This document shows positions 1,094-33,349 of a stretch of 61,254 nt of DNA, piece by piece (positions within the stretch are counted from its first letter, which is position 1; each line of letters opens with the position of its first letter). Where the stretch lies: the IMG/VR virus record IMGVR_UViG_3300023440_000007, positions 1 through 61,254 of that record; one strand, given 5' to 3'. This DNA comes from a virus (taxonomy: Duplodnaviria; Caudoviricetes). The notes below the pieces were generated by a model. It made no database searches, was not told the DNA's origin, and saw nothing but the letters and a program-made list of their open reading frames with translations. The position numbers and the translations under genes were made by a program.

Positions 1094-1411
1094 CTATAGT
1101 CTTTCATATTCTTCGTCGTCAGAAGGACCGCCCGTCACTTCCAAAAAGCTCCTAAGAGAATCATTCTCTATGTCTTTCATGCATCTTATGACGCACTTCC
1201 AATAGACGTCTCCTTCCTGAGTAGTAAAATACGGTCTGAAAGGAAACCTCACATATGAGAACTCTCCAACATACTTCTTTGTAGAAGACATATATCTATC
1301 GACATATACCATCTTCTTATAAGACGGTACTCCGACCATGTGCCCACGTTTGTCCGATAAGTCCTTTATGTTGGAGAACATCATACCTCCTGAGTCGGAT
1401 AAATTTTCCAT
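1094..1411 (-). CDS. EG-x2-YW paralog family protein
   Basis: FPFRPYFTTQEGDVYWKCV. Confidence 0.75.
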   Translation of the reverse strand: MENLSDSGGMMFSNIKDLSDKRGHMVGVPSYKKMVYVDRYMSSTKKYVGEFSYVRFPFRPYFTTQEGDVYWKCVIRCMKDIENDSLRSFLEVTGGPSDDEEYERL

Positions 1412-1563
1412 CCTTTCCTACCGCAATATCCTATCAACCATTTCATGTCCTTACCTATAGCCCACTTCAGTATTGGAGCTGCGTCTATGATCTCATCATT
1501 GTCCGACACAATTATGCCAGCACAGAAATATCCAGAATCTACTGTTATTACTGACTCATCCAT
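1381..1563 (-). CDS. Phage hypothetical protein
   Basis: 60 aa, YFCAGIIV...AAPILKW; in the minus-strand operon. Confidence 0.7.
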   Translation of the reverse strand: MDESVITVDSGYFCAGIIVSDNDEIIDAAPILKWAIGKDMKWLIGYCGRKGWKIYPTQEV

Positions 1564-1585
1564 AGAACTGACAATTTTCTCATAT

Positions 1586-1661
1586 TGGCCCTCCCTCTAG
1601 GATTCGAACCTAGAACCTACGGTTTAGAAGACCGTTGCTCTATCCATTGAGCTAAGGGAGG
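1586..1661 (-). tRNA. tRNA-Arg (anticodon TCT)
   Basis: Cloverleaf: acceptor CCTCCCT/AGGGAGG, anticodon arm ACGGT-CTTCTAA-ACCGT, T arm CTAGG-TTCGAAT-CCTAG, encoded CCA. Confidence 0.95.
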
Positions 1662-1903
1662 AAGAGTTCTCTAATAATAAGGAATGAATCTGACCTAATT
1701 CCATGAACATTAATCCTATCAGCGCTGAATATAGACTTGACAACCTGCTGCCAATACATATGGCCTTCACGAGTCTTCCTTAGAGAAAATGGGAACACTG
1801 CTCCAGATACAGACGTCCTTTCATCAGATGTAAAAGGCATATAGTGGACCTTGAAAGTCTTCAAGACTTCAGGACTATCATATAGCAATGAAAAGCTTCT
1901 CAT
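1652..1903 (-). CDS. EG-x2-YW paralog family protein between the two tRNAs
   Basis: FPFSLRKTREGHMYWQQV. Confidence 0.75.
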   Translation of the reverse strand: MRSFSLLYDSPEVLKTFKVHYMPFTSDERTSVSGAVFPFSLRKTREGHMYWQQVVKSIFSADRINVHGIRSDSFLIIRELFLP

Positions 1904-1979
1904 GGTGCCCGTCCTGGGACTCGAACCCAGACTTGCGAGATTTTAAGTCTCGCTCCTCTGCCAATTGGGATAGACGGGC
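1903..1979 (-). tRNA. tRNA-Leu (anticodon TAA), short variable loop
   Basis: Acceptor GCCCGTC/GACGGGC, anticodon arm CGAGA-CTTAAAA-TCTCG, T arm CTGGG-TTCGAGT-CCCAG, CCA. Confidence 0.9.
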
Positions 1980-1984
1980 ATTAA

Positions 1985-2236
1985 TCACCACTTGTCTACC
2001 CTAACAAGATACGCATTAGGAGAATTGGAAAAGAATCTCATCCTACTTATATCAATCATATTTGTCATACTATACAGGACGCCTGACCAATAGTCAAATC
2101 CCTCAACCGAGTCTTCCAAGGAGAATGGACAAACAATCGTATGAGTCTCCCTGAGGTCGAAATTGACAAATCTAAATACTCTAGACCTGATCATTCTTTT
2201 ACGACTATGAGTCCATCTCTTCATGGAGCTACCCAA
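1985..2236 (-). CDS. EG-x2-YW paralog family protein
   Basis: CPFSLEDSVEGFDYWSGV. Confidence 0.75.
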   Translation of the reverse strand: MGSSMKRWTHSRKRMIRSRVFRFVNFDLRETHTIVCPFSLEDSVEGFDYWSGVLYSMTNMIDISRMRFFSNSPNAYLVRVDKW

Positions 2237-2493
2237 TAGTACAAATACTCATCCACATCTTTCATTTCAACGATCCTATACTGTGCACCTAGAAATCTAG
2301 AAAATACTTCTAGCCAATATGTCTCACCTTCATTAGAAGTAACTATTGGAAAAGGAGACAATACGAAGTACTCAAATCCATTGGGCGGGGAAGAAGTGCA
2401 TACTATATTCACTGTCTGATACATGTATATGTTCAATACGGATTCTATCTCTCTAAGAGATGAATAAAATCTTCTTTTCTTACAAGAATCCAT
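2221..2493 (-). CDS. EG-x2-YW paralog family protein
   Basis: SPFPIVTSNEGETYWLEV. Confidence 0.75.
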   Translation of the reverse strand: MDSCKKRRFYSSLREIESVLNIYMYQTVNIVCTSSPPNGFEYFVLSPFPIVTSNEGETYWLEVFSRFLGAQYRIVEMKDVDEYLYYWVAP

Positions 2494-2713
2494 TAGAACA
2501 CAAACAAAAGAATACTCTCTTCCAGTATTGCTTACCCTCTCTCAGGACGTCTATGTAAAATGGCAGATTAATCTCTCTGTAATAGTATCTTCTAGCATCA
2601 TTTGTGTCCTGCTCATAATAGCAGAAGACCGGGACATATCTATTCCTTCCTATAGGCTTTCCTCTAACATGAGAATATTCATATCTAACTAATTCATTAC
2701 CCATCAAAAACAC
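2480..2713 (-). CDS. EG-x2-YW paralog family protein
   Basis: LPFYIDVLREGKQYWKRV. Confidence 0.75.
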   Translation of the reverse strand: MFLMGNELVRYEYSHVRGKPIGRNRYVPVFCYYEQDTNDARRYYYREINLPFYIDVLREGKQYWKRVFFCLCSNGFL

Positions 2714-2916
2714 CTCTCCCCTATAGAGTCAAAGACATAATACCAATATGAATTGCCCTCCCTGGAAACATTAGAGGAAAACGGAGCCAGATGCGAATTC
2801 TTCCTATTGATAGGCTGCGCAGGAATTGCAATGAATCTGCGACCGTCTTTATAGATTATCCAATACTTCCTGCCATGCATATAGACTTTCTTTAAGACCT
2901 TTGTCATATCAAACAT
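2704..2916 (-). CDS. EG-x2-YW paralog family protein
   Basis: APFSSNVSREGNSYWYYV. Confidence 0.75.
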   Translation of the reverse strand: MFDMTKVLKKVYMHGRKYWIIYKDGRRFIAIPAQPINRKNSHLAPFSSNVSREGNSYWYYVFDSIGERCF

Positions 2917-2920
2917 CCAA

Positions 2921-3118
2921 TCAAAAAATCAGATAACAAGCATCCCTACTGATGTCTGAGATAGACCTGAAAACTGAGTTCCAATATAAATTGCCTTCCC
3001 TTGTGATAGAAGAATCGAATGGAGCCGATACTGATTCTATATATCTGTAATCACTTCCTCTGTCTATACCCTTCCTATGATATCTGATCATAAGAATTGG
3101 AGGAAAAGTCTCACTCAT
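2921..3118 (-). CDS. EG-x2-YW paralog family protein
   Basis: APFDSSITREGNLYWNSV. Confidence 0.75.
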   Translation of the reverse strand: MSETFPPILMIRYHRKGIDRGSDYRYIESVSAPFDSSITREGNLYWNSVFRSISDISRDACYLIF

Positions 3119-3297
3119 CTAGTGAGACTAACCCTGGAAAAGTCTATCATCTCAGAGTCATTTCTATAAGCTATTATAGAGAAAATGTGATCCCAATATG
3201 ACCTGCCCTCTCTAGTGAGATTGATATCAAAAGCAAGGTATGGATACCTATAAACTATGTGATCCTTATGTATTACCGTAGACATCGAAACGGTCAT
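3115..3297 (-). CDS. EG-x2-YW paralog family protein
   Basis: LAFDINLTREGRSYWDHI. Confidence 0.75.
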   Translation of the reverse strand: MTVSMSTVIHKDHIVYRYPYLAFDINLTREGRSYWDHIFSIIAYRNDSEMIDFSRVSLTR

Positions 3298-3500: not shown

Positions 3501-3560
3501 GAGAACAAACTCTTCACAATATCTACAGGATATACGACTGCAAAACCAAGTCTGTGCAGA

Positions 3561-3836: not shown

Positions 3837-4090
3837 GAAGATTCCCTAAGATCGAAAAATCTATTGCAGAGTTGTAGGATATCCAAGTCGTAGAGTCTTA
3901 TGAAGACATACTTCCAAAATAGAGGATGCTCCCTGCACAACCGAAAATCGGCAGGGATATACACTTCATCGTATACGACCTGCTGTTCATCTATGACTAT
4001 GAGCACAGGCTTTGAGTACTCTGTCGTATACTTCTCCATCTCTATGGAGTATGAGAAGAAAGACCTCTCAAGCCTGTGGTTGCTTATCAT
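3833..4090 (-). CDS. EG-x2-YW paralog family protein (divergent)
   Basis: ADFRLCREHPLFWKYV. Confidence 0.65.
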   Translation of the reverse strand: MISNHRLERSFFSYSIEMEKYTTEYSKPVLIVIDEQQVVYDEVYIPADFRLCREHPLFWKYVFIRLYDLDILQLCNRFFDLRESS

Positions 4091-4292
4091 CAGTATTCAT
4101 CTTCCTATGTATGCGCCAATAGACCTCTAGCCAGTACTCTGCTCCTTCTCTGAACATATTATATCCAATCCAATTCATCCAGTCTATGGGAATATTCACA
4201 TTATCATGCACATGATCAGAGATATAGCTCTCAAGCTCCTTGTCCATACATTCTGGGATATAGGAATAGTCGTCTAACTTTACCCATCTCAT
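4068..4292 (-). CDS. EG-x2-YW paralog family protein (WRIHR subgroup)
   Basis: FREGAEYWLEVYWRIHR. Confidence 0.75.
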   Translation of the reverse strand: MRWVKLDDYSYIPECMDKELESYISDHVHDNVNIPIDWMNWIGYNMFREGAEYWLEVYWRIHRKMNTDDKQPQA

Positions 4293-4477
4293 ACTTCTAG
4301 TATCTTCTTATATCTGATGAAGACTTGTCTCCAATAGTCATCTCCTTCACGCGTCCTGGCATATGCGAATGGAGTGACCGCCCATAGCTCCCATGACCCC
4401 AGCTTATCTGCAAGACCTACGAACACGCTTCCTTGAGGATTGATATAGGATATATGTGAACAGAAATGCTTCTTCAT
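4289..4477 (-). CDS. EG-x2-YW paralog family protein
   Basis: TPFAYARTREGDDYWRQV. Confidence 0.75.
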   Translation of the reverse strand: MKKHFCSHISYINPQGSVFVGLADKLGSWELWAVTPFAYARTREGDDYWRQVFIRYKKILEV

Positions 4478-4499
4478 ACATAGTCTCCATATGTAGAAA

Positions 4500-5386: not shown

Positions 5387-5600
5387 CTCTCATTCCCAAG
5401 AGCCTATGAATCCTCCAATACACATCAGACCAATATTCACTGCCTTCTCTGAACCTGCATACTCCGACCAGAGCTATCCAGTTTATGTAGCCACATGCAT
5501 CAAATCTGTGAGAATCGACGTACTGAGCAAGGTCTTCATCTTGACTGTAGAATCTATATTCAGAATACCCAGATTCATTTATTTCCATTATCCACTTCAT
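5370..5600 (-). CDS. EG-x2-YW paralog family protein (WRIHR subgroup)
   Basis: FREGSEYWSDVYWRIHR. Confidence 0.75.
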   Translation of the reverse strand: MKWIMEINESGYSEYRFYSQDEDLAQYVDSHRFDACGYINWIALVGVCRFREGSEYWSDVYWRIHRLLGMRDEIQG

Positions 5601-5793
5601 TCAAGAGCCTGTGAATCCTCCAGAATACTTCAAGCCAGTATTCCCATCCTTCTCTGAATTTCTCATATCCTACCGCCGCTATCCATTCTGCATATTCACA
5701 TCTCTCATATCTGTTCTTTTTGACGTATTCATCCAACTCCGCATCATTGGAATGCGGATCATATAGAGCAGATCCAGTTTTTACCCACTTCAT
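5575..5793 (-). CDS. EG-x2-YW paralog family protein (WRIHR subgroup)
   Basis: FREGWEYWLEVFWRIHR. Confidence 0.75.
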   Translation of the reverse strand: MKWVKTGSALYDPHSNDAELDEYVKKNRYERCEYAEWIAAVGYEKFREGWEYWLEVFWRIHRLLNEVDNGNK

Positions 5794-15327: not shown

Positions 15328-15675
15328 ATGGTGAGGATCCTACCGGAAGACATAGAAGACCTATTCCATGAATCATTTGAATTCAGATATTCAAGGGAAG
15401 GTGGAGAATATTGGTGGGACATTTACGAACATGTAACTGACCACCTTGAATGGATAATGAGGAAAGATGAAGTGATGGACTACGAGATGATGGAATTCAT
15501 TCTATACAAAAGAATAGAATATGAATGGGAAGAGAAAGCCATATGGGAGAAGTTGAATGAATCTCTTTGCAGTGGGAATACCTGCGAAGGGAACAGATAC
15601 TGGAAAGAAGTTCTGAAAAGATTTGGGAAATTAGTGAACAAGAAAACTCTCCATCCTGCCTATAGGGAGAAATGA
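15328..15675 (+). CDS. EG-x2-YW paralog, two motif copies
   Basis: SFEFRYSREGGEYWWDI and TCEGNRYWKEV. Confidence 0.75.
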   Translation: MVRILPEDIEDLFHESFEFRYSREGGEYWWDIYEHVTDHLEWIMRKDEVMDYEMMEFILYKRIEYEWEEKAIWEKLNESLCSGNTCEGNRYWKEVLKRFGKLVNKKTLHPAYREK

Positions 15676-17061: not shown

Positions 17062-17346
17062 ATGGCCGAGAAGAAAGTGAAGAAGATCCCTCTGGACAAG
17101 CTTCCCAAGGCCAAGGTCGGATTGAACTACAAGCCGCATATGGACGACAGACGCGGTCTGTATCGCGGCGTCAATCAGGAAGCTCTGGCGAAGCTGATCG
17201 AGATTCTCGAAGATACCGACTTCTCTGACGCTCCAGAGCCTGAGGAGTTCTGGGAAGAGGTGATCGCCAGGCTGAAGAAAATTCAACGGGATACCAAGCT
17301 CGTTCTCACCACCCTGAAAATTCAGGGTAAATTGGAAGGAGACTGA
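17062..17346 (+). CDS. Hypothetical protein
   Basis: 94 aa, AAAGGAGGTGA RBS, hairpin downstream ~17357-17390. Confidence 0.8.
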   Translation: MAEKKVKKIPLDKLPKAKVGLNYKPHMDDRRGLYRGVNQEALAKLIEILEDTDFSDAPEPEEFWEEVIARLKKIQRDTKLVLTTLKIQGKLEGD

Positions 17347-17389: not shown

Positions 17390-17680
17390 ATGGATTTGAT
17401 AGAAATGAGTGATAATCTCATAGACTACCTGTTCGGTAAAACGAGCATAAAAGAAGAGATAGATAAGAAAAGACTGATGTGGAAAAACTTTCTTGACCAT
17501 ACCGAGACGGAAAACAAGAGAGAGGTCTGGAAGAACCTTCTGTCTAGAAGCGAGGAAGAGGTCACGCTGTTGACCTGCTTCGACCTTCTATACCCGAGCC
17601 TATTCCTTAAATCAAGAGAAGGATATGAGTATTGGGATTGCGTAGAAACGAGATTGATGAACTCTCTTGACCTCTCTTAG
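17390..17680 (+). CDS. EG-x2-YW paralog family protein
   Basis: LFLKSREGYEYWDCV. Confidence 0.75.
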   Translation: MDLIEMSDNLIDYLFGKTSIKEEIDKKRLMWKNFLDHTETENKREVWKNLLSRSEEEVTLLTCFDLLYPSLFLKSREGYEYWDCVETRLMNSLDLS

Positions 17681-21651: not shown

Positions 21652-21867
21652 ATGCGATTTAATCAGACACTGAGACCCATGAGGAAGAGAATTCTCCTAA
21701 AAGACAGTGACGCTCCCCGTCTTCTAGTATATTCGTTTGATTGGTTTGCATCTAAAGACGGAGGAGATGAGGACGGATCAGATGAATTCTGGCATCAGAT
21801 ATATAGGAGAATGTCGTTCTGTAGAGCAGAAGTTCAACCCAATAGAAAACGGATAAAGAAGAAATGA
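21652..21867 (+). CDS. EG-x2-YW paralog (insertion variant)
   Basis: SFDWFASKDGGDEDGSDEFWHQI. Confidence 0.6.
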   Translation: MRFNQTLRPMRKRILLKDSDAPRLLVYSFDWFASKDGGDEDGSDEFWHQIYRRMSFCRAEVQPNRKRIKKK

Positions 21868-22094
21868 GAAAAAAGCTTCTATTAAGATATAGTGAAGCTG
21901 GAATATTATTGATACGCGCCTTCCATTGGCGTTTATCTAGAGATGGAGGAGTCCCATATCTATCAGACCTATATTGGTACTTAGTCCATAAAAGGATTAT
22001 GGGAAGCAATGCGGAAGTCAGAAGTAGGACCAAATCCGTCTACAATAAGAATAAAAAGGATCACATTACTGAATACCGTAAGATGCATCATTAA
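21864..22094 (+). CDS. EG-x2-YW paralog (insertion variant)
   Basis: AFHWRLSRDGGVPYLSDLYWYLV. Confidence 0.6.
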   Translation: MRKKLLLRYSEAGILLIRAFHWRLSRDGGVPYLSDLYWYLVHKRIMGSNAEVRSRTKSVYNKNKKDHITEYRKMHH

Positions 22095-23476: not shown

Positions 23477-23546
23477 GAGTATCTGACCAAACTATTCTGG
23501 GATCTTGTATAAGATCCCAGACTTTATCCATTTATATGAGGAGAGA

Positions 23547-23702
23547 ATGATAAATACAGAGAAAGATAAGGATGATCACACAAAGTGTGTTGTATATCTA
23601 CAACAGATGTTTCCATATAGAAACAGCATGGAAGGATGGGAATATTGGACTACAGTCTATTTTAGGATAATCTCTTTTTATAGAAGGGATGATATGGAAT
23701 AG
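23547..23702 (+). CDS. EG-x2-YW paralog family protein
   Basis: MFPYRNSMEGWEYWTTV; ATG at 23547 after GAGGAG. Confidence 0.7.
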   Translation: MINTEKDKDDHTKCVVYLQQMFPYRNSMEGWEYWTTVYFRIISFYRRDDME

Positions 23703-24061: not shown

Positions 24062-24289
24062 GTGAACTGGATAGAAATGGACACTCTAGGAAATAGAATA
24101 ACGGTAAATATCGGTGCGCTTCTAAATGAAGCTTTCCATTGGAGATGTTCTGAAGAAGATTATGTTTACTGGCATCAGATCTATGATGCTTTGAATGATC
24201 TTGACAGTATCAGCACCGAAATCATATTCGTCCATAAGCCATTTGGACCACCCAAAATCTGTGTTTCCCCTAAGGGCAGGAGCAGATGA
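24062..24289 (+). CDS. EG-x2-YW paralog family protein
   Basis: AFHWRCSEEDYVYWHQI. Confidence 0.7.
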   Translation: MNWIEMDTLGNRITVNIGALLNEAFHWRCSEEDYVYWHQIYDALNDLDSISTEIIFVHKPFGPPKICVSPKGRSR

Positions 24290-24462
24290 AAGGAGTAAAA
24301 CCAAAAGTGTTCATAAGAATTTGGCGTAGGAATGAGAGACTCCTATGGAAGACCGGGATATTCTGGGTAAAGACAAGAGAAGGACTAGAATACTGGAAAG
24401 CCGTGGGAGAAAGATTCAGCATTAGACATGAGCAAGACGACGTTGATCTATACAATCAATAA
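24286..24462 (+). CDS. EG-x2-YW paralog (58 aa, below the ORF-track cutoff)
   Basis: Hand translation: GIFWVKTREGLEYWKAV. Confidence 0.75.
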   Translation: MKGVKPKVFIRIWRRNERLLWKTGIFWVKTREGLEYWKAVGERFSIRHEQDDVDLYNQ

Positions 24463-24628
24463 AGGAAAAGAACAGCCTCCCTGGTTTAGAGGGATAGTTT
24501 GGGAAGCAGTAATACATCCAGAAACAGAATCTATGAAGTTAATGGATATCAGCTTCTGGTATGACTGTTCGAGAGAGGGATTCGATTACTGGCTCTATAT
24601 CTTAAGAAGGATAGAAAGTGAAATATAG
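24428..24628 (+). CDS. EG-x2-YW paralog family protein
   Basis: SFWYDCSREGFDYWLYI. Confidence 0.75.
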   Translation: MSKTTLIYTINKGKEQPPWFRGIVWEAVIHPETESMKLMDISFWYDCSREGFDYWLYILRRIESEI

Positions 24629-24836
24629 CATAGTTGAAATACAAGAAGACCTTCCAGAATATTCTCTTTGCAGAAAGTATGGGGTGATTCCTTCAAAGGA
24701 ACATTACCCATATCAGAGTGAATATGATCTGAGTTGGATATCTGCATTGCTTGATAGTTGCTTCATATTCAGACATTCTATGGAAGGACCAGAGTATTGG
24801 ATGGAAATCCGCAAGAAGCTGAATTTCATAAAGTGA
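24618..24836 (+). CDS. EG-x2-YW paralog family protein
   Basis: CFIFRHSMEGPEYWMEI. Confidence 0.75.
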   Translation: MKYSIVEIQEDLPEYSLCRKYGVIPSKEHYPYQSEYDLSWISALLDSCFIFRHSMEGPEYWMEIRKKLNFIK

Positions 24837-24847: not shown

Positions 24848-25021
24848 ATGCCAGAGGAATACATGAATCCTGCTAAGAGAAGGAAGAAAAGATTCCTATT
24901 CGATCCTATAGAAGCAGCAAGACTGCTGGATCGCTCATTCATTTGGCATAGATCTAGAGAGGAAGACAGCTATTGGATATTCGTTCAGAGAAGGATCAGA
25001 ACATCATGCCAGAACGAGTAG
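24848..25021 (+). CDS. EG-x2-YW paralog family protein
   Basis: SFIWHRSREEDSYWIFV. Confidence 0.7.
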   Translation: MPEEYMNPAKRRKKRFLFDPIEAARLLDRSFIWHRSREEDSYWIFVQRRIRTSCQNE

Positions 25022-25254
25022 AAGTGAGGAAAAGACATAAAAGCAGTAATACGTATCTATGCATCAATACTGAGACTCCAAAGCCCAAGTGGTTTAGAGG
25101 AATAGAGTGGGATTTTCGTGTAAGCGAGAAATCTATGTTAGAGAAATTGGCCATTGTTTCCTTCTGGTTCTCAGAGCCAATGGAAGGGTATGAGTATTGG
25201 AGAGAGGTCTATGATCGGATAAAATTCTTGAACAGGAAAGACAGGGAAACATGA
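25006..25254 (+). CDS. EG-x2-YW paralog family protein
   Basis: SFWFSEPMEGYEYWREV; PKWFRG shared with neighbours. Confidence 0.75.
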   Translation: MPERVEVRKRHKSSNTYLCINTETPKPKWFRGIEWDFRVSEKSMLEKLAIVSFWFSEPMEGYEYWREVYDRIKFLNRKDRET

Positions 25255-25568
25255 AACTTCCTATCAAGATAAATGCAGAAAATATGAGACCAAAGTGGTT
25301 CAGTGGGGTCACGTATCACTTAACAATAAGAGAGAGTACTGAGATACATCTGTTACTAAATTCAGCTTTCTGGTTCAGTGCCTCCAATGAAGGAGCAGAA
25401 TACTGGTATGAAGTCAGAAATAGGATAGAGAGCCATACAAAAGAACAGGAATATGTCTTTCCATACGAAACAGCTATGGAGCTGCTAGATAAGTCATTTC
25501 TCTGGGCTTCTACCAGAGAAGAAGTAAGATACTGGATGCACGTATATTATGGATTTCAAAGAATTTGA
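25251..25568 (+). CDS. EG-x2-YW paralog, two motif copies
   Basis: AFWFSASNEGAEYWYEV and SFLWASTREEVRYWMHV. Confidence 0.75.
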   Translation: MKLPIKINAENMRPKWFSGVTYHLTIRESTEIHLLLNSAFWFSASNEGAEYWYEVRNRIESHTKEQEYVFPYETAMELLDKSFLWASTREEVRYWMHVYYGFQRI

Positions 25569-25665: not shown

Positions 25666-25932
25666 ATGGAAACGACTCTAATGAACGAAATATTCATAAG
25701 GACCATAATAAGAAAGGAAATAAGTAAGATACACTTTTCTGTCATATTTGACTTCTGCTCAACAAGAGAGGGCAAAGAATACTGGAATGGATCTTTGTAC
25801 TGTCATGTCTATGTATTTTACTTTTACAGAGATTTCTGCATAAAAGGGAGCAAGATCGATAAATGGCTAGTAGGAAAACATGAAAGAGATTTCATTGAAT
25901 ATACAAATACGAGCTCTATTGATGCGCCTTAA
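25666..25932 (+). CDS. EG-x2-YW paralog family protein
   Basis: IFDFCSTREGKEYWNG. Confidence 0.7.
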   Translation: METTLMNEIFIRTIIRKEISKIHFSVIFDFCSTREGKEYWNGSLYCHVYVFYFYRDFCIKGSKIDKWLVGKHERDFIEYTNTSSIDAP

Positions 25933-29299: not shown

Positions 29300-29530
29300 A
29301 TGTGGGGAATACATAAAACCATGATGAAGATGGAGAAGATAGGGAATAAGATCTATTTCTATAGGAACAAGTATCTACCTGATTTGGAAGATCAGTTGGC
29401 CCTATATAGAATATTGAGGATTAATGTGAAGGCTCTACGTAATTCAAGAGAGCGGCAGGCATACTGGGAATATGTGATGTACTCTATTGAGACGTATAAA
29501 TCATATGAACGGCCTGGTTTGGACAGATGA
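29300..29530 (+). CDS. EG-x2-YW paralog family protein
   Basis: LRNSRERQAYWEYV. Confidence 0.7.
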   Translation: MWGIHKTMMKMEKIGNKIYFYRNKYLPDLEDQLALYRILRINVKALRNSRERQAYWEYVMYSIETYKSYERPGLDR

Positions 29531-29715
29531 TCATAAACAGGGACATACTTCCTGAAATGTTCAGAAATATCGAAAATATGTCCATCGTTGGAACCATAAT
29601 CTTCTATAATGGGAGAACGAGGGAGGGATGGAAGTACTGGCTTGCAGTCACTTCTAAGATCGAGGAGAGGTTCATTGAGAACTCTGAATCTATGGATCAA
29701 AGTGAATGGAGGTAA
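29527..29715 (+). CDS. EG-x2-YW paralog family protein
   Basis: IFYNGRTREGWKYWLAV. Confidence 0.75.
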   Translation: MIINRDILPEMFRNIENMSIVGTIIFYNGRTREGWKYWLAVTSKIEERFIENSESMDQSEWR

Positions 29716-29716
29716 A

Positions 29717-29860: not shown

Positions 29861-29862
29861 AA

Positions 29863-30078
29863 ATGAAGAGATTCAAAAGAATAGGATCAATAGAAGCAAA
29901 ATATCTGAGAATAGAAGATAAAGAGCTCAATAACAAAATACTTCGTCTATTCCAAAATGTGTTCTCATGGATGAGCGCTAGAGAGGGACGATTCGAAAAT
30001 TCGAACAAGCCGTATGATTACTGGTACTATGTCACAATGATTGTCAGATGTGACGGTAAATTCGTTATGAACGCTTGA
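29863..30078 (+). CDS. EG-x2-YW paralog (insertion variant)
   Basis: VFSWMSAREGRFENSNKPYDYWYYV. Confidence 0.75.
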   Translation: MKRFKRIGSIEAKYLRIEDKELNNKILRLFQNVFSWMSAREGRFENSNKPYDYWYYVTMIVRCDGKFVMNA

Positions 30079-30086
30079 TATAATCA

Positions 30087-30254
30087 ATGGCCTATATCGT
30101 GAAAGAAGTGATACGGGATCGGCAGCACAATCTTATATGGATCTATCTATTTGATTCCTTGCTCTCAAGAGAAGGACCTGAATATTGGGTAGAAGTCGTT
30201 AAGAAAATAGAAGATCTCATTATAGACGGGACTATACAGATCAGCGAATCATGA
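30087..30254 (+). CDS. EG-x2-YW paralog (55 aa, below the ORF-track cutoff)
   Basis: Hand translation: LFDSLLSREGPEYWVEV. Confidence 0.75.
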   Translation: MAYIVKEVIRDRQHNLIWIYLFDSLLSREGPEYWVEVVKKIEDLIIDGTIQISES

Positions 30255-30463
30255 ATAACTGCAACAGAGAGAAGAAATACAAAAGACTTGGGATCAAGCA
30301 TAGTTACGGAAACGGGAACATAGATAGGGAAATCCGTCATCTGTTCATTCGCATGTTTCCTTGGACTTGTGCTAGAGAAGGAATCCTAGATAAAGGATAT
30401 TCTTACTGGTGTGCTGTAGATAAATACCTCCAATTGAATGGAAATATAGTCAGGAATAGATGA
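30251..30463 (+). CDS. EG-x2-YW paralog (insertion variant)
   Basis: MFPWTCAREGILDKGYSYWCAV. Confidence 0.75.
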   Translation: MNNCNREKKYKRLGIKHSYGNGNIDREIRHLFIRMFPWTCAREGILDKGYSYWCAVDKYLQLNGNIVRNR

Positions 30464-30654
30464 TGGTCTATGTAGCCAAAGAAATGCTTGGATACGATGC
30501 GGGCCGTATGATTATGGTCCGCATATTCGATTCTGAGAGATCAAGAGAAGGGATCAGATACTGGATGGAGACTCTCTATAGAATAGAGGAGCTGCTTTGG
30601 AATAATGGACCGTCCCGTCGATATAAACAAAGAAAGAATGTACAGTCTGACTGA
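30460..30654 (+). CDS. EG-x2-YW paralog family protein
   Basis: IFDSERSREGIRYWMET. Confidence 0.75.
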   Translation: MMVYVAKEMLGYDAGRMIMVRIFDSERSREGIRYWMETLYRIEELLWNNGPSRRYKQRKNVQSD

Positions 30655-30715
30655 TGACAGGTCATGTTTCAATTTCGAATCTCCTCAAGAAGGCGTCTGA
30701 GCAAGAAGGTCTGAG

Positions 30716-30904
30716 ATGAAGAAATACAGACGAGAGGAATACATAAATAATTCATTTCTTAAGAATGAGATAGAAAGACTTTTTACGACTATGTTCAGCT
30801 GGAGGCGTGCCCAGGAAGGGATATGCTCAAATGAGCTCTCATATTGGGCATTGGTCTTCAGAGTCTTAATTAGATCTCCTAGGAATCGTAGATATACGAG
30901 ATGA
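30716..30904 (+). CDS. EG-x2-YW paralog (insertion variant)
   Basis: MFSWRRAQEGICSNELSYWALV. Confidence 0.75.
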   Translation: MKKYRREEYINNSFLKNEIERLFTTMFSWRRAQEGICSNELSYWALVFRVLIRSPRNRRYTR

Positions 30905-31125
30905 AGAAATACAAGAGAACTATGGATGAAGGGGAGGACACTTTAATCCCTCTTAAAGAAGACGAGTTGTTTATGCTGTTTGACCAAATGTTCATTTGGA
31001 AGTCTGCCAGGGAAGGATCCATAGACGATCATAATACATTCACGTACTGGAATGCGGTTATGAGAATTCTCCTATATAGAAACCATAGATTATGTATTGA
31101 GGACCATTGGGAGAACCATTGGTAG
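30901..31125 (+). CDS. EG-x2-YW paralog (insertion variant)
   Basis: MFIWKSAREGSIDDHNTFTYWNAV. Confidence 0.75.
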   Translation: MKKYKRTMDEGEDTLIPLKEDELFMLFDQMFIWKSAREGSIDDHNTFTYWNAVMRILLYRNHRLCIEDHWENHW

Positions 31126-31135
31126 GAGAATCATT

Positions 31136-31303
31136 ATGATTATAGACAAGATTGATGATGTCTGAGTGATCCCATCTGACGCGTCCTCTATCCAAGAAGG
31201 ATGGCAATATTGGGAAAGAGCGATGGACAGGGTTCTGTACATAGTACACAGTCTGTGCACAATACATAGAAAGGGAGGGAATTCGGAAGAGTTGTTCATA
31301 TAA
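31136..31303 (+). pseudogene. EG-x2-YW paralog with an in-frame TGA at codon 10
   Basis: AGGAG RBS; MIIDKIDDV*VIPSDASSIQEGWQYWERA. Confidence 0.6.
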
Positions 31304-31346
31304 GACAACGCTTTGATATTTGTATGGATATCCCTCTTGAACTCAG

Positions 31347-31577
31347 ATGCAGCGCTTAGGATATAAAGAAATGGGAAACGGCTTCATAGAGATATTCGAT
31401 GTCTATCGTCCTGTCACAATGGAAGCTAATATCTGCTATCTAATAAAGCCGGTTGGAGAAGAGGTCATTACTCTGGAATTTCCATTCGATATAGAGGATA
31501 CAAGAGAAGGATATATCTACTGGGCTAGAGCGTCGTGGAGCATATACAGATACTTCAAGGAAACACGAGGCAGATAG
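31347..31577 (+). CDS. EG-x2-YW paralog family protein
   Basis: FPFDIEDTREGYIYWARA. Confidence 0.75.
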   Translation: MQRLGYKEMGNGFIEIFDVYRPVTMEANICYLIKPVGEEVITLEFPFDIEDTREGYIYWARASWSIYRYFKETRGR

Positions 31578-31736
31578 ATGATGATATATGAAGGAGAACT
31601 GATCTGTTATGAAAAAGGGCCATGTACGATCTTCATAGATCTGTTCTCTGAGGAAGGTCCTCAATACTGGCAAGAAGTCTCTGTGAGGATAAATGAGATC
31701 TTGCGTGATAGAAATCAGGAAATTCTAGAGACATGA
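31578..31736 (+). CDS. EG-x2-YW paralog (52 aa, below the ORF-track cutoff)
   Basis: Hand translation: IFIDLFSEEGPQYWQEV. Confidence 0.7.
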   Translation: MMIYEGELICYEKGPCTIFIDLFSEEGPQYWQEVSVRINEILRDRNQEILET

Positions 31737-31948
31737 GCTTGCCACGACGTGGAGGACATTGGTCTTATATGCCGTTCGAAATCGATAACACTAAAGAAGG
31801 AACGGAGTATTGGATCTCTATCTCTAGAAGATTGGATGAATTAGTAGCAGATAAAATGTCCTCAGCCTTTCCTCACAGAGTAGAAAGATTCATCTCAGTA
31901 ATGCAGTATTCTGGAGATAAATACATATTTTACTGGGTTAAGGACTGA
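31733..31948 (+). CDS. EG-x2-YW paralog family protein
   Basis: MPFEIDNTKEGTEYWISI. Confidence 0.75.
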   Translation: MSLPRRGGHWSYMPFEIDNTKEGTEYWISISRRLDELVADKMSSAFPHRVERFISVMQYSGDKYIFYWVKD

Positions 31949-32179
31949 TTGGAGCAGACAAGAGCGATGGGCGATTATTACCCAATAAGATTCATGCCGT
32001 TTACAGAAGAAGATTCTATGGAGGGTAATGAGTATTGGGAAGAAGTCTCTGACAGGATTTCTCAAACTTCCGTATTTAATGTCATGCAGAGTATGAGTAC
32101 ATACGATAAAGACTTGGCTGGAATATTGATTTTTCCAGGAGCTGAAAGGATCCTATTTAGGGTGAGTCCAGTAAAATGA
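31949..32179 (+). CDS. EG-x2-YW paralog family protein
   Basis: MPFTEEDSMEGNEYWEEV. Confidence 0.75.
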   Translation: MEQTRAMGDYYPIRFMPFTEEDSMEGNEYWEEVSDRISQTSVFNVMQSMSTYDKDLAGILIFPGAERILFRVSPVK

Positions 32180-32379
32180 ATACATCAAGCACAATGTCTG
32201 TTATGCCATTCTTCATAGAAGTATCTAGAGAAGGTCCTAGCTATTGGTTTGACGTTTCTTGTATTCTTGATAGAGAGTTGTCTGACAAAGTAGTATCTGC
32301 AGATATGTCTTCAGGAATATACCTTTGCAGTTCTCCTAATGAGAATGGATATGTATTCTATGTAGTAGGGAAGCCGTAG
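32176..32379 (+). CDS. EG-x2-YW paralog family protein
   Basis: MPFFIEVSREGPSYWFDV. Confidence 0.75.
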   Translation: MNTSSTMSVMPFFIEVSREGPSYWFDVSCILDRELSDKVVSADMSSGIYLCSSPNENGYVFYVVGKP

Positions 32380-32381
32380 AC

Positions 32382-32597
32382 ATGAAACAAGATACAAGAT
32401 ACGTCCTATATCATCTATATGAACTATCGTCAACTGTTCCTATGGTCGATGTCATGCCGTTCTGTATAGAACATACCAAAGAAGGATCAGAATACTGGGT
32501 TGGAATTTCCAGTATTCTGTTTAGATCAGGAGTAACTCCATATAGGGTCCAATGTGGCGGTGAAGAATGGATAGAAAATATGGAGACATTCCAATGA
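32382..32597 (+). CDS. EG-x2-YW paralog family protein
   Basis: MPFCIEHTKEGSEYWVGI. Confidence 0.75.
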   Translation: MKQDTRYVLYHLYELSSTVPMVDVMPFCIEHTKEGSEYWVGISSILFRSGVTPYRVQCGGEEWIENMETFQ

Positions 32598-32785
32598 ACA
32601 TGCCGAAGAGCCTGATCCCATTCAGCGAACTTCCAAGTGAGAAGGAGATCATCCCAAGAAGCCTGGTTATATTCTTCAATTTCAGGACCAGGGAAGGCGC
32701 TGAATATTGGGTAGAAGTCAATAACAAGATCAAGTATATCTTGGAGAGGAACGTTGGAACAGAAGCAGATAGAAAAGCTTCATAA
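32594..32785 (+). CDS. EG-x2-YW paralog family protein
   Basis: FFNFRTREGAEYWVEV. Confidence 0.75.
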   Translation: MNMPKSLIPFSELPSEKEIIPRSLVIFFNFRTREGAEYWVEVNNKIKYILERNVGTEADRKAS

Positions 32786-32960
32786 TGCACTTAGACTAGA
32801 TAAGCTGTTGAGGGATGAGCCAATATTCACCTTCGGCAGGATCAAGTCTAATGGAGAATTCCCATTTATGGAGGGGTATGAATATTGGAAAGAGGTTGGA
32901 AATAGGCTTGCTAAGTACTGTTCATCCCAGCTTGGTAAGGAAACAGAGAATATTCTGTAA
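32754..32960 (+). CDS. EG-x2-YW paralog family protein
   Basis: EFPFMEGYEYWKEV. Confidence 0.7.
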   Translation: MEQKQIEKLHNALRLDKLLRDEPIFTFGRIKSNGEFPFMEGYEYWKEVGNRLAKYCSSQLGKETENIL

Positions 32961-32967
32961 TACAGAC

Positions 32968-33168
32968 ATGAGAGACATAAAATCAGGGAGACAGGATATT
33001 CTATATACTAATGAGAAAGAAGTATTCAATGTAGTCAGAAGAAATATAGATTGTTTTACATGGCTAAATTCTGAGGAATCTTATGATTACTGGAAAGAAG
33101 TATTCAGCAGAATGTATGGATATTACTACTGGAAGAGTACAGGAAAATATGGGCTTGTCTTCTCTTAG
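32968..33168 (+). CDS. EG-x2-YW paralog family protein
   Basis: CFTWLNSEESYDYWKEV. Confidence 0.7.
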   Translation: MRDIKSGRQDILYTNEKEVFNVVRRNIDCFTWLNSEESYDYWKEVFSRMYGYYYWKSTGKYGLVFS

Positions 33169-33349
33169 CTTATTAGAACGACACGAAATGATATCGAGCG
33201 GACTATGCGCATTTAGGTGGCACGGAACCATGGAAGGATTGAAATATTGGTCCTTAGTTGATATGCGTCTTCATGACTACGCATATCAATTAGAGATTCA
33301 ATATTATAATTCTGATAGACATGGAGAACATGAATGGAATTGTCGATAG
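33149..33349 (+). CDS. EG-x2-YW paralog family protein
   Basis: AFRWHGTMEGLKYWSLV. Confidence 0.75.
   Translation: MGLSSLSLLERHEMISSGLCAFRWHGTMEGLKYWSLVDMRLHDYAYQLEIQYYNSDRHGEHEWNCR

What the first reader, a model, noticed from the sequence alone, without database searches (positions are those of the whole stretch)
1094..33349. About 56 tiny paralogous genes sharing an F-x5-7-(R)EG-x2-YW-x2-V motif
Seen: 17 copies on the minus strand (1094-5793) and about 39 on the plus strand (15328-33349), 47-115 aa, mostly translationally coupled. Several are below the ORF-track cutoff (23899, 24286, 30087, 31578). Only the ~20-aa core is shared; flanks are unrelated or form local subgroups (WRIHR; PKWFRG; MPF; insertion variants between EG and YW), and two genes carry double motifs. 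They take roughly a fifth of the window and are inserted between tRNAs and within the AAA/vWA module. Inference: a diversified repertoire with a common docking helix, such as adaptors for one hub protein, anti-defence decoys, or readers of the modified base. Paralog expansion on this scale is exceptional for a phage.
Basis: partly seen in the sequence, partly recalled or inferred. Interest (0 to 1): 0.85.

Follow-up and report, generated by a model that had tools for sequence, protein, structure and literature searches.

The report
Huge small-protein family in a phage
A phage genome fragment from a microbial mat spends about a fifth of its DNA on some 50-57 tiny, very divergent genes that share one short helical module; the module is common in phages but has never been studied, and this is an unusually large gene-family expansion for a virus of this size.

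Summary
The strict pattern EGxx[YF]W occurs 45 times (0.14 expected). All 45 lie on the coding strand of the two claimed blocks: 16 on minus 1199-5652 and 29 on plus 15397-33250. A profile finds 50 firm open frames. Gapped or degenerate variants bring the total to 57 ORFs of 45-117 aa, covering 12,418 nt, or 20.3% of the 61,254-bp contig.

Conservation is at the protein level. Gly uses all four codons, third codon positions are the least alike, and in-frame codon usage matches the phage's long genes.

The core is not unique to this phage. It is a divergent form of a widespread, unnamed phage module, F-x-W-xx-[ST]-x-[EQ]-G-xx-[YF]-W-xx-V. PHROGs 16354, 25460 and 10949 hold it, all marked 'unknown function'. 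It has no Pfam, NCBIfam or PDB match. Elsewhere it occurs 1-4 times per locus, once as a 12-gene array in a 266-kb phage, and as up to about 8-9 repeats in one protein.

AlphaFold predicts a helix-turn-helix hairpin, and two hairpins pack into a helical bundle. The conserved residues look like fold core and turn. My best reading (inference) is therefore a diversified repertoire of small cytoplasmic binders for host takeover or counter-defence. Function is untested.

The parts
1094..1411 (-). family gene, 105 aa (EGDVYW)
   Evidence: strict motif; core profile 31.0 bits
1652..1903 (-). family gene, 83 aa, between tRNA-Arg (1586-1661) and tRNA-Leu (1903-1979)
   Evidence: 34.8 bits
1985..2236 (-). 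family gene, 83 aa
   Evidence: 31.1 bits
2221..2493 (-). family gene, 90 aa
   Evidence: 31.1 bits
2480..2713 (-). family gene, 77 aa
   Evidence: 36.6 bits
2704..2916 (-). family gene, 70 aa
   Evidence: 37.6 bits
2921..3118 (-). family gene, 65 aa
   Evidence: 36.5 bits
3115..3297 (-). family gene, 60 aa
   Evidence: 33.8 bits
3294..3500 (-). family gene, 68 aa
   Evidence: 32.9 bits
3561..3836 (-). family gene, 91 aa
   Evidence: 30.9 bits
3833..4090 (-). degenerate family gene, 85 aa (REHPLFW)
   Evidence: (8.0 bits)
4068..4292 (-). family gene, 74 aa, WRIHR subgroup
   Evidence: 36.8 bits; BLASTP 1.7e-20 to 5575-5793
4289..4477 (-). family gene, 62 aa
   Evidence: 37.9 bits
4500..4745 (-). 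family gene, 81 aa
   Evidence: 32.2 bits
4800..5009 (-). family gene, 69 aa
   Evidence: 38.9 bits
5370..5600 (-). family gene, 76 aa, WRIHR subgroup
   Evidence: (36.4 bits)
5575..5793 (-). family gene, 72 aa, WRIHR subgroup; the protein folded
   Evidence: (42.5 bits)
15328..15675 (+). family gene, 115 aa, two motifs
   Evidence: 58.3 bits, two domains
17062..17346 (+). marginal candidate, 94 aa (PEEFWEEV)
   Evidence: 10.3 bits with the wider profile; no paralog BLAST hit
17390..17680 (+). family gene, 96 aa
   Evidence: 33.4 bits
17667..17924 (+). family gene, 85 aa
   Evidence: 32.4 bits
19041..19250 (+). family gene, 69 aa
   Evidence: 33.7 bits
19292..19561 (+). family gene, 89 aa
   Evidence: 33.8 bits
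21652..21867 (+). insertion variant, 71 aa (DG-x9-FW), between the AAA and VWA genes
   Evidence: BLASTP 2e-13 to its neighbour
21864..22094 (+). insertion variant, 76 aa (DG-x8-YW)
23505..23702 (+). family gene, 65 aa
   Evidence: 39.9 bits
23718..23906 (+). family gene, 62 aa
   Evidence: 34.6 bits
23899..24042 (+). family gene, 47 aa
   Evidence: 36.5 bits
24062..24289 (+). family gene, 75 aa (EEDYVYW)
   Evidence: (11.7 bits); best phrog_16354 place
24286..24462 (+). family gene, 58 aa
   Evidence: 30.6 bits
24428..24628 (+). family gene, 66 aa, PPWFRG subgroup
   Evidence: (37.2 bits)
24618..24836 (+). family gene, 72 aa
   Evidence: 35.9 bits
24848..25021 (+). family gene, 57 aa from the ATG at 24848 (frame open from 24758) (REEDSYW)
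   Evidence: (12.8 bits)
24973..25254 (+). family gene, 93 aa, PKWFRG subgroup
   Evidence: (37.7 bits)
25251..25568 (+). family gene, 105 aa, two motifs (second is REEVRYW)
   Evidence: (41.7 bits); phrog_16354 E 1.7e-5
25666..25932 (+). family gene, 88 aa; motif not followed by V, atypical tail
   Evidence: 34.0 bits
25880..26200 (+). family gene, 106 aa (HEDWEYW)
   Evidence: (19.9 bits)
29300..29530 (+). marginal candidate, 76 aa (RERQAYWEYV)
   Evidence: (5.4 bits)
29527..29715 (+). family gene, 62 aa
   Evidence: 35.7 bits
29609..29860 (+). family gene, 83 aa as the longest ORF; overlaps the previous gene by 107 nt, start uncertain
   Evidence: (32.9 bits)
29863..30078 (+). insertion variant, 71 aa (EG-x10-YW)
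30087..30254 (+). family gene, 55 aa
   Evidence: 38.8 bits
30251..30463 (+). insertion variant, 70 aa (EG-x7-YW)
   Evidence: (9.5 bits)
30460..30654 (+). family gene, 64 aa
   Evidence: 36.1 bits
30716..30904 (+). insertion variant, 62 aa (EG-x6-YW)
   Evidence: (11.0 bits)
30901..31125 (+). insertion variant, 74 aa (EG-x9-YW)
   Evidence: (12.4 bits)
31166..31303 (+). short copy, 45 aa, GTG start, lacks the upstream F segment
   Evidence: 28.0 bits
31347..31577 (+). family gene, 76 aa
   Evidence: 34.1 bits
31578..31736 (+). family gene, 52 aa
   Evidence: 33.5 bits
31733..31948 (+). family gene, 71 aa, MPF subgroup (motif near the N-terminus)
   Evidence: (34.0 bits)
31949..32179 (+). family gene, 76 aa, MPF subgroup
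   Evidence: (40.6 bits)
32176..32379 (+). family gene, 67 aa, MPF subgroup
   Evidence: (36.6 bits)
32382..32597 (+). family gene, 71 aa, MPF subgroup
   Evidence: (33.8 bits)
32567..32785 (+). family gene, 72 aa
   Evidence: 37.4 bits
32754..32960 (+). family gene, 68 aa
   Evidence: 30.2 bits
32815..33168 (+). family gene, up to 117 aa (SEESYDYW); overlaps both neighbours in another frame, start uncertain
   Evidence: (16.5 bits)
33083..33349 (+). family gene, 88 aa, last of the plus-strand set
   Evidence: 31.1 bits

Best explanation
Shown or predicted (about 0.95 for this descriptive part):
- The contig is a novel phage fragment. CheckV estimates it 61% complete, and it comes from a microbial-mat metagenome.
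- It carries a lineage-specific expansion of 50 firm and up to 57 small, soluble proteins without membrane segments.
- Each protein holds one copy of a roughly 30-residue module, and two proteins hold two. In this phage the module reads [P]-F-x5-[R]-E-G-x2-Y-W-x2-V-x2-[R]-I.
- The module is a divergent subtype of a widespread, so far unnamed phage module: hydrophobic-x3-A-F-x-W-x2-[ST]-x-[EQ]-G-x2-[YF]-W-x2-V-x3-L.
- AlphaFold predicts a helix, a turn and a long helix. In two-module proteins the two hairpins pack into a helical bundle.
- The genes sit in long same-strand runs with many overlapping stops and starts, among replication and nucleotide-metabolism genes.

Inferred (about 0.35-0.4 for this functional part):
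- The conserved residues are hydrophobic-core and turn or cap positions, so the motif marks a fold, not an active site.
- Specificity then lies in the unrelated flanks and the variable helix faces.
- The set most likely works as a repertoire of small cytoplasmic binders, each aimed at a different host (or phage) protein, for host takeover or counter-defence.
- It grew by repeated local duplication followed by deep divergence.
For: Reality and coding:
- 45 strict motifs against 0.14 expected, all on the coding strand of the two blocks.
- 52 frames at 7 bits or more against 0.3 in shuffles.
- The invariant Gly uses GGA 20, GGC 12, GGT 8, GGG 5. Glu uses GAA 33 and GAG 12. Tyr uses TAT 27 and TAC 18.
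- Pairwise identity by codon position is 0.50, 0.55 and 0.35.
- In-frame codon usage correlates at 0.86 with 16 long phage genes, against 0.18-0.53 in the other five frames.

Homology to a wider family:
- A profile of 44 window proteins finds 164 proteins at E of 1e-3 or less among 1.84 billion representatives. Of the 150 listed, 112 are external, and one of those is a YWTD false positive.
- Ten external hits were scanned, and all ten match phrog_16354 and phrog_25460, with best E-values from 3.5e-39 to 2.1e-7.
- Window proteins match the same PHROGs weakly: 1.7e-5, and 12 places at E of 0.01 or less.
- 118 of 120 IMG/VR pattern hits carry an in-frame module, as do 48 of 120 hits in prokaryote genomes and MAGs.

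In-lineage expansion:
- 27 of 44 window units have another window unit as their best-scoring neighbour, although the pool held 43 window units against 411 external ones.
- The window copies share their own signature: R at -1 in 61% against 9%, and P at -8 in 39% against 1%.
- Best paralogs are often neighbours, and a two-type alternation runs through 29863-31125.

Fold:
- AF2 of 5575-5793 gives pLDDT 71.7 with helices 33-41 and 50-70 around the motif.
- AF2 of the two-module protein P0026 gives pLDDT 82 and pTM 0.74, with five helices and pLDDT above 90 on both modules.
- Conserved hydrophobic positions fall at -15, -11, -8, -7 and at +4, +5, +8, +12.

Solubility and diversity:
- No 19-residue stretch reaches Kyte-Doolittle 1.6. 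There are 34 acidic and 23 basic members.
Against: - No direct evidence of expression. No RNA run is listed for this sequence.
- There is no partner, no fusion to a known domain in 10 long relatives, and no conserved neighbour across 118 loci. The binder or counter-defence function therefore rests on analogy alone.
- I had no model coordinates, so burial of the conserved residues is argued from helical periodicity and not measured.
- The invariant Glu and the frequent Arg at -1 and at +11 could form a functional site.
- Shine-Dalgarno-like sequences are weak for many genes, and several starts are uncertain.
- A few copies (25666-25932, 31166-31303, 3833-4090) look degenerate and may be decaying.
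Confidence: 0.4

Rival explanations
1. Hub-docking model. The conserved core is a surface docking element for one common partner, a host or phage hub. The variable flanks make each paralog a different adaptor, decoy or competitor at that hub.
For: - E-G-x2-Y-W is invariant in the 45 strict copies by construction, but the flanking preferences (R at -1, V at +8, R/K at +11) are also kept across otherwise unrelated proteins.
- Proteins elsewhere string up to about 8-9 modules together, which would suit multivalent binding to an oligomeric hub.
Against: - The conserved positions form an amphipathic stripe plus a turn, as expected of a folded hairpin core.
- AF2 packs two modules against each other with pLDDT above 90.
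- The module occurs in viruses assigned to very different host phyla and in archaeal MAGs. A single conserved hub would have to be nearly universal.
Confidence: 0.2
2. Nucleic-acid-binding model. The proteins are small DNA- or RNA-binding regulators or nucleoid-type proteins, comparable to the zinc-ribbon expansion proposed as transcription factors or structural DNA binders in Bacillus phage G.
For: - The architecture is helix-turn-helix-like.
- 23 of 57 members are basic, with pI up to 11.
- The genes lie beside replication and DNA-modification genes.
- There is precedent in the passage read from PMC7824862.
Against: - 34 of 57 members are acidic, and many external multi-repeat proteins are visibly rich in Asp and Glu.
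- No HTH or other DNA-binding Pfam family matched at E of 1 or less in the 10 window and 10 external proteins scanned.
- The turn is longer than in classical HTH motifs (from my own knowledge).
Confidence: 0.12
3. Combinatorial oligomer model. Single-hairpin proteins pair as homo- or heterodimers to rebuild the bundle seen in two-module proteins, so the array encodes a mix-and-match set of dimers. This can coexist with the best explanation.
For: - By the wider profile, 70 of 112 external hits carry two modules, and the two modules of P0026 are predicted to pack together.
- Basic insertion variants alternate with standard copies at 29863-31125, which suggests duplication of two-gene units.
Against: - Nothing was measured.
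- Most window proteins have extra N- or C-terminal segments that could complete the fold on their own.
Confidence: 0.1
4. Readers of the hypermodified thymidine. The family recognises the phage's own modified base.
For: The contig encodes a 5-hmdU DNA kinase, a TAGT-like glycosyltransferase, a thymidylate-synthase-like protein and a dCTP-deaminase-like protein.
Against: The 5-hmdU kinase family PF18723 is found in 0 of 5 other records that carry the module, 4 of them at least 95% complete. The same search is positive on this contig. The five records were chosen by me and are few.
Confidence: 0.03
5. Not genes. A repeated cis-acting DNA element or chance ORFs.
For: The ORFs are short, some under 60 aa, and many lack a clear ribosome-binding site.
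Against: - Mean nucleotide identity of the core is only 0.46, with free synonymous variation, and third positions are the least conserved.
- Codon usage is in-frame.
- Homologous proteins exist in hundreds of other viral contigs.
Confidence: 0.01

Closest known systems
PHROG families 16354, 25460, 10949, 20568, 38635 and 30073 (all annotated 'unknown function')
   Same: Same module. External relatives of the window family match these profiles at E down to 3.5e-39. Window proteins match them weakly.
   Different: Window copies are a divergent subtype. W at -5 is present in 7% against 92% of external units, R replaces P at -1, and P often replaces A at -8 (the external figures are partly biased by the pattern used to fetch loci). 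These PHROGs have no function, name or structure.
12-gene tandem array in a 266-kb IMG/VR phage contig (handle G001, about 135.7-139.4 kb)
   Same: A tandem run of 73-89-aa single-module genes on one strand, tightly packed.
   Different: 12 copies in 266 kb (about 1.4% of the genome), of uniform length. Here there are 50-57 copies in 61 kb (20%), with very unequal flanks, in several blocks on both strands.
Zinc-ribbon expansion of Bacillus phage G (about 35 copies; Iyer et al. 2021, PMC7824862; passage read)
   Same: A lineage-specific expansion of a tiny domain in one phage, with function guessed only.
   Different: A different fold (zinc ribbon against helical hairpin). There are fewer copies in a genome that I recall as about 0.5 Mb. 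The paper's supplement S1.4, which lists such expansions, could not be seen.
Multigene families of large eukaryotic DNA viruses (ASFV MGF families, poxvirus ankyrin/BTB families); recalled, not checked here
   Same: Many diverged paralogs of one small scaffold, thought to counter host defences.
   Different: Unrelated folds and hosts. Those are known to be expressed and partly characterised, and nothing of that kind is known here.
Tandem arrays of paralogous immunity genes in polymorphic toxin loci (Zhang et al. 2012, PMC3482391; only the search listing and start of the abstract seen; the array feature is recalled)
   Same: Runs of small, fast-diverging paralogs, each thought to neutralise a different protein.
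   Different: Those are bacterial, lie next to toxin genes, and belong to other folds. No toxin gene is seen beside the arrays here.

Membership tests
Unnamed phage F-x-W-x2-[ST]-x-[EQ]-G-x2-[YF]-W module (PHROGs 16354/25460/10949) | Significant profile match in both directions | tested here: met
   The window profile hits 112 external proteins among the best 150 at E of 1e-3 or less in 1.84 billion. All ten of those scanned match the PHROGs strongly. phrog_16354 hits the window at 12 places with E of 0.01 or less and 25251-25568 at 1.7e-5.
Unnamed phage F-x-W-x2-[ST]-x-[EQ]-G-x2-[YF]-W module (PHROGs 16354/25460/10949) | [EQ]-G-x2-[YF]-W followed by V/I at +3 and L/I at +7 after the W | tested here: met
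   45 strict copies. V/I at +8 in 91% and I/L at +12 in 80% of window units, against 89% and 52% of external units.
Unnamed phage F-x-W-x2-[ST]-x-[EQ]-G-x2-[YF]-W module (PHROGs 16354/25460/10949) | Upstream F-x-W (Trp five residues before the Glu) | tested here: not met
   F at -7 is kept in 75%, but W at -5 is present in only 7% of window units against 92% of external units (the external set is partly selected on this residue). I therefore file the window family as a divergent subtype, not a typical member.
Unnamed phage F-x-W-x2-[ST]-x-[EQ]-G-x2-[YF]-W module (PHROGs 16354/25460/10949) | Helix, turn, long helix around the motif | tested here: met
   Predicted only. The window protein has helices 33-41 and 50-70 at pLDDT 72. 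External P0026 has helices 2-19/29-45 and 73-87/96-117 at pLDDT 82.
Any curated Pfam-A or NCBIfam family | Score above the curated cut-off | tested here: not met
   10 of the 57 window proteins and 10 external proteins were scanned in Pfam, and 10 proteins in NCBIfam. No family reached its cut-off, and no family recurred.
LDL-receptor class B (YWTD) repeat | Match to PF00058; beta-propeller blade | tested here: not met
   Only the false-positive hit P0013 matches PF00058. The 10 window proteins scanned do not, and they are predicted helical.
Solved structures (PDB) by sequence or fold | Sequence hit, or a fold match that stands out | tested here: inconclusive
   The best sequence hit is a chance match to the MHC class I helix at E 0.17. 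Foldseek finds nothing at E of 1e-3 or less. The best VIA-align Z is 7.0, to generic helical bundles, which is within the background for helical models.
Lineage-specific multigene expansion in a virus | Tens of paralogs, clustered, closer to each other than to outside relatives | tested here: met
   50-57 copies in blocks. 27 of 44 units have their nearest neighbour inside the window despite a tenfold larger outside pool.
Cis-acting DNA repeat | Nucleotide conservation without synonymous variation | tested here: not met
   All four Gly codons are used and third positions are the least conserved.
Classical helix-turn-helix DNA-binding domains | Match to an HTH family; DNA binding | tested here: inconclusive
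   No HTH family at E of 1 or less in the 20 proteins scanned. DNA binding cannot be tested with these tools.

The most novel reading that the evidence does not exclude
The EG-YW hairpin is a general-purpose, highly evolvable binder scaffold of phages. This phage has turned it into a true repertoire: some fifty different small binders that together disarm many host defence or housekeeping proteins. That would be a viral counterpart of a diversified immune-type gene family, and would make the module a new and very large class of counter-defence or host-takeover proteins across phages of many phyla.
Probability: 0.25. Interest if true: 0.85.

Novelty: new variant of a known kind. Interest (0 to 1): 0.7.

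Why it matters
Lineage-specific gene-family expansions are a hallmark of host-virus conflict, but they are rare and small in phages of ordinary size. Here about one fifth of a 61-kb contig is one family. That is more copies than the roughly 35 that a comparative study of jumbo phages called unprecedented.

The shared module is also present, in low copy number, in viral contigs and MAGs assigned to many bacterial phyla and to archaea. It has no name, structure or function. This phage therefore offers about fifty natural variants of one tiny scaffold. That is a ready-made library for learning what the module binds, and a strong candidate source of new counter-defence or host-takeover proteins.

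At the least, the module deserves a family definition, such as a Pfam entry.

Tried and rejected
- Word-indexed protein searches with the family alignments found only the window's own proteins or the query rows. The family is too divergent for shared 5-mers.
- The 36-aa core alignment was too short or too variable for two tools.
- tblastn of a 7-repeat relative against GenBank phages found nothing at 1e-3. A 106-aa single-module relative found only 6 records, all 'hypothetical' or unannotated: Vibrio phages Vp_R1, SJSY21 and 2.095.A/B, and Pseudoalteromonas phage HM1.
- megablast of 23000-33500 against phages gave no match.
- Fold searches gave nothing specific: BFVD, PDB by Foldseek, VIA-align wide.
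- ESM Atlas gave no usable feature hit for P0026 or for 25251-25568. Structure neighbours of a poor model (pLDDT 0.50) were viral hypothetical proteins at TM of about 0.5.
- Complex prediction on two copies of 5575-5793 gave 'no answer' (score 0.00). This is no evidence either way.
- Expression: no RNA holder is listed for 23500-33400. Only DNA runs of one microbial-mat study hold it.
- Laying those contigs showed the same phage at low depth in a second sample, with few differences and no joints in the arrays. I learned nothing on diversification from it.
- Relatives of the phage: 0 of 2 loci found with the VWA protein and 0 of 19 found with the DnaB helicase (39% identity or less) carry the module within the held flanks. 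I could not test whether the expansion is shared by close kin, because none was found.
- Fusions: 10 long proteins with the module had no informative Pfam domain.
- Neighbours: clustering of 1431 ORFs around 118 viral loci gave no universal neighbour, only clade-specific ones such as a DnaB-like helicase in 13 loci.
- PHROG scan of 10 non-family ORFs inside the blocks found nothing.
- Literature: three full-text searches on phage paralog families and one on motif strings such as EGxxYW, YWxxV and FxWxxT found no description of this module.
- dN/dS was not attempted. The closest pairs are 47% identical or less, so synonymous sites are saturated.

Full report
**1. What the window is**

The window is the whole record held for this sequence: one contig of 61,254 bp. 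It is an IMG/VR-type virus record that CheckV estimates at 61% complete.

It is a novel phage:
- Its family-A DNA polymerase (46662-49193) is at most 31.5% identical to any GenBank phage, the best being Edwardsiella phage ZHS and Vibrio MAR10-like phages.
- megablast of 10.5 kb finds nothing.
- Ten non-family ORFs in the region have no PHROG match.
- Public DNA runs that hold the sequence come from one microbial-mat study.

Recognisable genes:

| Gene | Coordinates |
|---|---|
| AAA ATPase | 19647-20660 |
| DUF2201 metallopeptidase plus VWA-like protein | 22196-23476 |
| DnaB-like helicase | 33998-35377 |
| SNF2 helicase | 35377-36882 |
| dCTP-deaminase-like | 40691-41245 |
| 5-hmdU DNA kinase | 43635-44549 |
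| TAGT-like glycosyltransferase | 44546-45364 |
| Thymidylate-synthase-like | 45351-46412 |

Two tRNAs lie at 1586-1661 and 1903-1979 on the minus strand.

**2. Check of the observation**

The strict peptide pattern EGxx[YF]W occurs 45 times in the six-frame translation, against a mean of 0.14 (maximum 2) in 50 shuffles. All 16 minus-strand hits lie in 1199-5652 and all 29 plus-strand hits in 15397-33250.

An ungapped alignment of the 45 instances shows the wider core: hydrophobic-x-x-[P/A]-F-x5-[R]-E-G-x2-Y-W-x2-V-x2-[R/K]-[I/L].

A profile of this 28-aa core was searched against all 1381 stop-to-stop frames of 25 aa or more.
- It gives 52 frames with a domain of at least 7 bits, against 0.3 in 20 shuffles.
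- Fifty of them are on the expected strand inside the blocks.
- Two look like noise: 1285-1551 on the plus strand and 59462-59542 on the minus strand.

Read by eye, five further ORFs carry the same core with 6-10 residues inserted between the G and the YW, and two are marginal.

I therefore count 50 firm and up to 57 ORFs, 17 on the minus strand and 38-40 on the plus strand.
- They are 45-117 aa long (median 72).
- Their union is 12,418 nt, or 20.3% of the contig.
- Two genes have two motifs.
- The named sub-60-aa genes are real members.

**3. Protein, not DNA**

- At the invariant Gly all four codons are used (GGA 20, GGC 12, GGT 8, GGG 5).
- Glu splits GAA 33 and GAG 12. Tyr splits TAT 27 and TAC 18. 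Val uses four codons.
- Pairwise identity of the 66-nt core is 0.50, 0.55 and 0.35 at codon positions 1, 2 and 3.
- Mean nucleotide identity is only 0.46.
- Codon usage of the 57 ORFs correlates at 0.86 with 16 long genes of the same phage in frame, against 0.18-0.53 in the other five frames.

Of 55 same-strand neighbour gaps, 29 are overlaps (13 of exactly 4 nt) and 45 are 60 nt or less. No strong terminator-like site lies inside the minus-strand block. This fits polycistronic expression. However, ribosome-binding sites are weak for many genes and some starts are uncertain.

The proteins have no hydrophobic stretch of membrane-segment strength. Thirty-four are acidic and 23 basic.

**4. The core is a widespread, unnamed phage module**

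Pfam has no family for 10 window proteins. PHROGs gives only weak hits to families of unknown function.

A profile of 44 full-length window proteins (A2) was scored against 1.84 billion representative proteins. It found 164 at E of 1e-3 or less.
- Of the 150 listed, 38 are the window's own and 112 are external.
- One external hit, P0013, is a YWTD-repeat false positive.
- The external proteins show a sharper consensus: hydrophobic-x3-A-F-x-W-x2-[ST]-[P]-[EQ]-G-x2-[YF]-W-x2-V-x3-L.
- With the wider profile, 22 of the 112 carry one module, 70 carry two, and 20 carry three to seven. By motif count P0015 has eight, and the profile search gave it nine stretches. Successive modules start a median of 76 residues apart.
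- Ten of them were scanned. All ten match phrog_16354 and phrog_25460, with best E-values from 3.5e-39 to 2.1e-7, and most also match 10949 and 20568. All of these are annotated 'unknown function'.
- None has a Pfam or NCBIfam family, and none of 20 looked up has an informative name.

- In IMG/VR, 118 of 120 loci carry an in-frame module of at least 15 bits.
- In the prokaryote-genome collection, 48 of 120 do (33 at 25 bits or more). The rest are the chance matches expected for so short a pattern in 596 Gb.
- The true hits come from MAGs labelled as many bacterial phyla, plus a Nanoarchaeota and a Thorarchaeota MAG.

Among cultured phages I found it only in Vibrio phages (Vp_R1, SJSY21, 2.095.A/B) and Pseudoalteromonas phage HM1, as hypothetical proteins or in an unannotated record.

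Full-text searches found no description of the module.

**5. How unusual is the copy number?**

In the 118 viral loci (about 5-14 kb each):
- 105 have one module-bearing frame.
- 10 have two.
- 2 have three.
- One has 12.

The last is a tight tandem array of 73-89-aa genes in a 266-kb contig, with no further copy in the 40 kb examined. Genome and MAG loci have 1-4.

I found no close relative of this phage. None of the 21 loci fetched through its VWA or DnaB proteins (39% identity or less) has the module.

The window copies are closer to each other than to outside copies.
- 27 of 44 have their best-scoring neighbour inside the window, although the outside pool is ten times larger.
- They share their own signature: R at -1, P at -8, and loss of W at -5.
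- Full-length paralogs are at most 47% identical, and best hits are often neighbours.
- In 29863-31125 insertion variants alternate with standard copies, as if two-gene units had been duplicated.

This is an old expansion within the lineage.

For scale, a comparative study of 224 jumbo phages calls about 35 copies of a zinc ribbon in Bacillus phage G an 'unprecedented lineage-specific expansion' (PMC7824862, passage read). Its supplement could not be seen. My sample of other phages is not a census, so 'largest known' is a provisional statement.

**6. Fold**

AlphaFold2 on 5575-5793 with the 44-row family alignment gives pLDDT 71.7. It predicts a short helix (33-41) ending in the hydrophobic segment, a loop carrying R-E-G, and a long helix (50-70) starting at x-x-Y-W.

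The external two-module protein P0026, folded with 44 two-module relatives, gives pLDDT 82 and pTM 0.74. pLDDT is above 90 over both modules. It has five helices, with the two hairpins packed together.

Structure searches give only generic helical-bundle matches. The best VIA-align Z is 7.0, Foldseek finds nothing at E of 1e-3 or less, and no PDB sequence match goes beyond a chance hit to the MHC class I alpha-1 helix.

The conserved positions are hydrophobic, at -15, -11, -8, -7 and at +4, +5, +8, +12, which is helical spacing. They also include a [ST]-x-[EQ]-G turn just before the second helix. From this I infer that the motif is the signature of a small fold and not a catalytic or docking site. 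I had no coordinates to measure burial.

**7. What it most likely does**

Shown:
- It is a real, coding, soluble, deeply diverged paralog family built on a widespread module.

Predicted:
- The helical-hairpin fold.

Inferred:
- The invariant part is scaffold. The unrelated flanks and variable helix faces differ from copy to copy. The genes sit in long same-strand runs among replication and nucleotide-metabolism genes.
- The most economical reading is a repertoire of small cytoplasmic binders, each with its own target, used for host takeover or counter-defence. I give this about 0.35-0.4.

Rivals:
- One common hub bound through the conserved core (0.2).
- Nucleic-acid-binding regulators (0.12).
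- Readers of the modified base (0.03).

On the last rival, the 5-hmdU kinase family is absent from 5 of 5 other records that I chose because they carry the module, with a positive control on this contig.

A homodimer prediction returned no verdict, and no RNA data are listed. Neither result counts for or against any reading.

**8. Verdict**

It needs two corrections. The core is a known-but-unnamed, widespread phage module and not a private invention of this phage. It also looks like a fold signature, not a docking helix.

Novelty: a new, extreme variant of a known kind, namely viral lineage-specific gene-family expansion, built on an uncharacterised domain.

Interest: 0.7.

Noticed in passing
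window 6800-14700: A GC-rich island between the two family blocks. GC is 0.51-0.54 against about 0.40-0.47 in the flanks. Six minus-strand ORFs (8471-13601) have GC3 of 0.75, and their codon usage correlates only 0.21 with the phage's long genes. Five of them are each followed by a strong terminator-like hairpin ending in TTCTTTTTG or similar, or ACACTTTTTG. 6800-8400 has no credible ORF. In run X1 the Logan contig covering 14001-15784 has depth 101.7, against 43.5 and 37 for the rest of the laid stretch. It is either a mobile island also present elsewhere in the sample or an assembly join. The same rare family on both sides argues that the flanks belong together.
   Followed up: partly
window 5845-6730 (-): A C5 cytosine DNA methyltransferase appears split over two overlapping frames. 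6344-6730 matches the N-terminal part of PF00145. By eye, 5845-6552 carries C-terminal-looking sequence but has no Pfam hit. It may be a frameshift, a sequencing error or a split enzyme.
   Followed up: partly
window 40691-46412 (+): A gene set for thymidine hypermodification: dCTP-deaminase-like, 5-hmdU DNA kinase, TAGT-like glycosyltransferase and thymidylate-synthase-like. Which modification is made was not examined.
   Followed up: no
window 46662-49193 (+): The 843-aa family-A DNA polymerase has an N-terminal extension of about 200 aa. By eye and from memory it resembles a family-4 uracil-DNA glycosylase. GenBank relatives align from residue 19 or 36 onward. Not tested against Pfam.
   Followed up: no
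window 27820-29300: About 1.5 kb inside the plus-strand block has no ORF over 47 aa on the coding strand. It holds two inverted repeats (arms of 18 nt and 14 nt) and a 16-nt direct repeat 23 nt apart. It could be a regulatory region, an origin or an RNA gene. Rfam finds nothing at gathering score.
   Followed up: partly
window 1586-1979 (-): Family gene 1652-1903 fills the space between tRNA-Leu and tRNA-Arg exactly. Its last 10 nt (1652-1661) overlap tRNA-Arg.
   Followed up: no
window 29527-29860 and 32754-33349 (+): As longest ORFs, neighbouring family genes overlap by 107, 146 and 86 nt in different frames, and each frame carries its own motif. They are either true overlapping genes or use later start codons.
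   Followed up: partly
proteins P0008, P0012, P0015 (metagenome singletons): Long, visibly Asp/Glu-rich proteins made of 5-8 spaced copies of the module. P0015 is 964 aa with a repeat unit of about 95 aa. No other known domain was found.
   Followed up: partly
PDB 3rwc chain A, residues 54-88: The alpha-1 helix of an MHC class I heavy chain reads QEGPEYWEE and aligns to the module at E 0.17. I take it as chance convergence.
   Followed up: no
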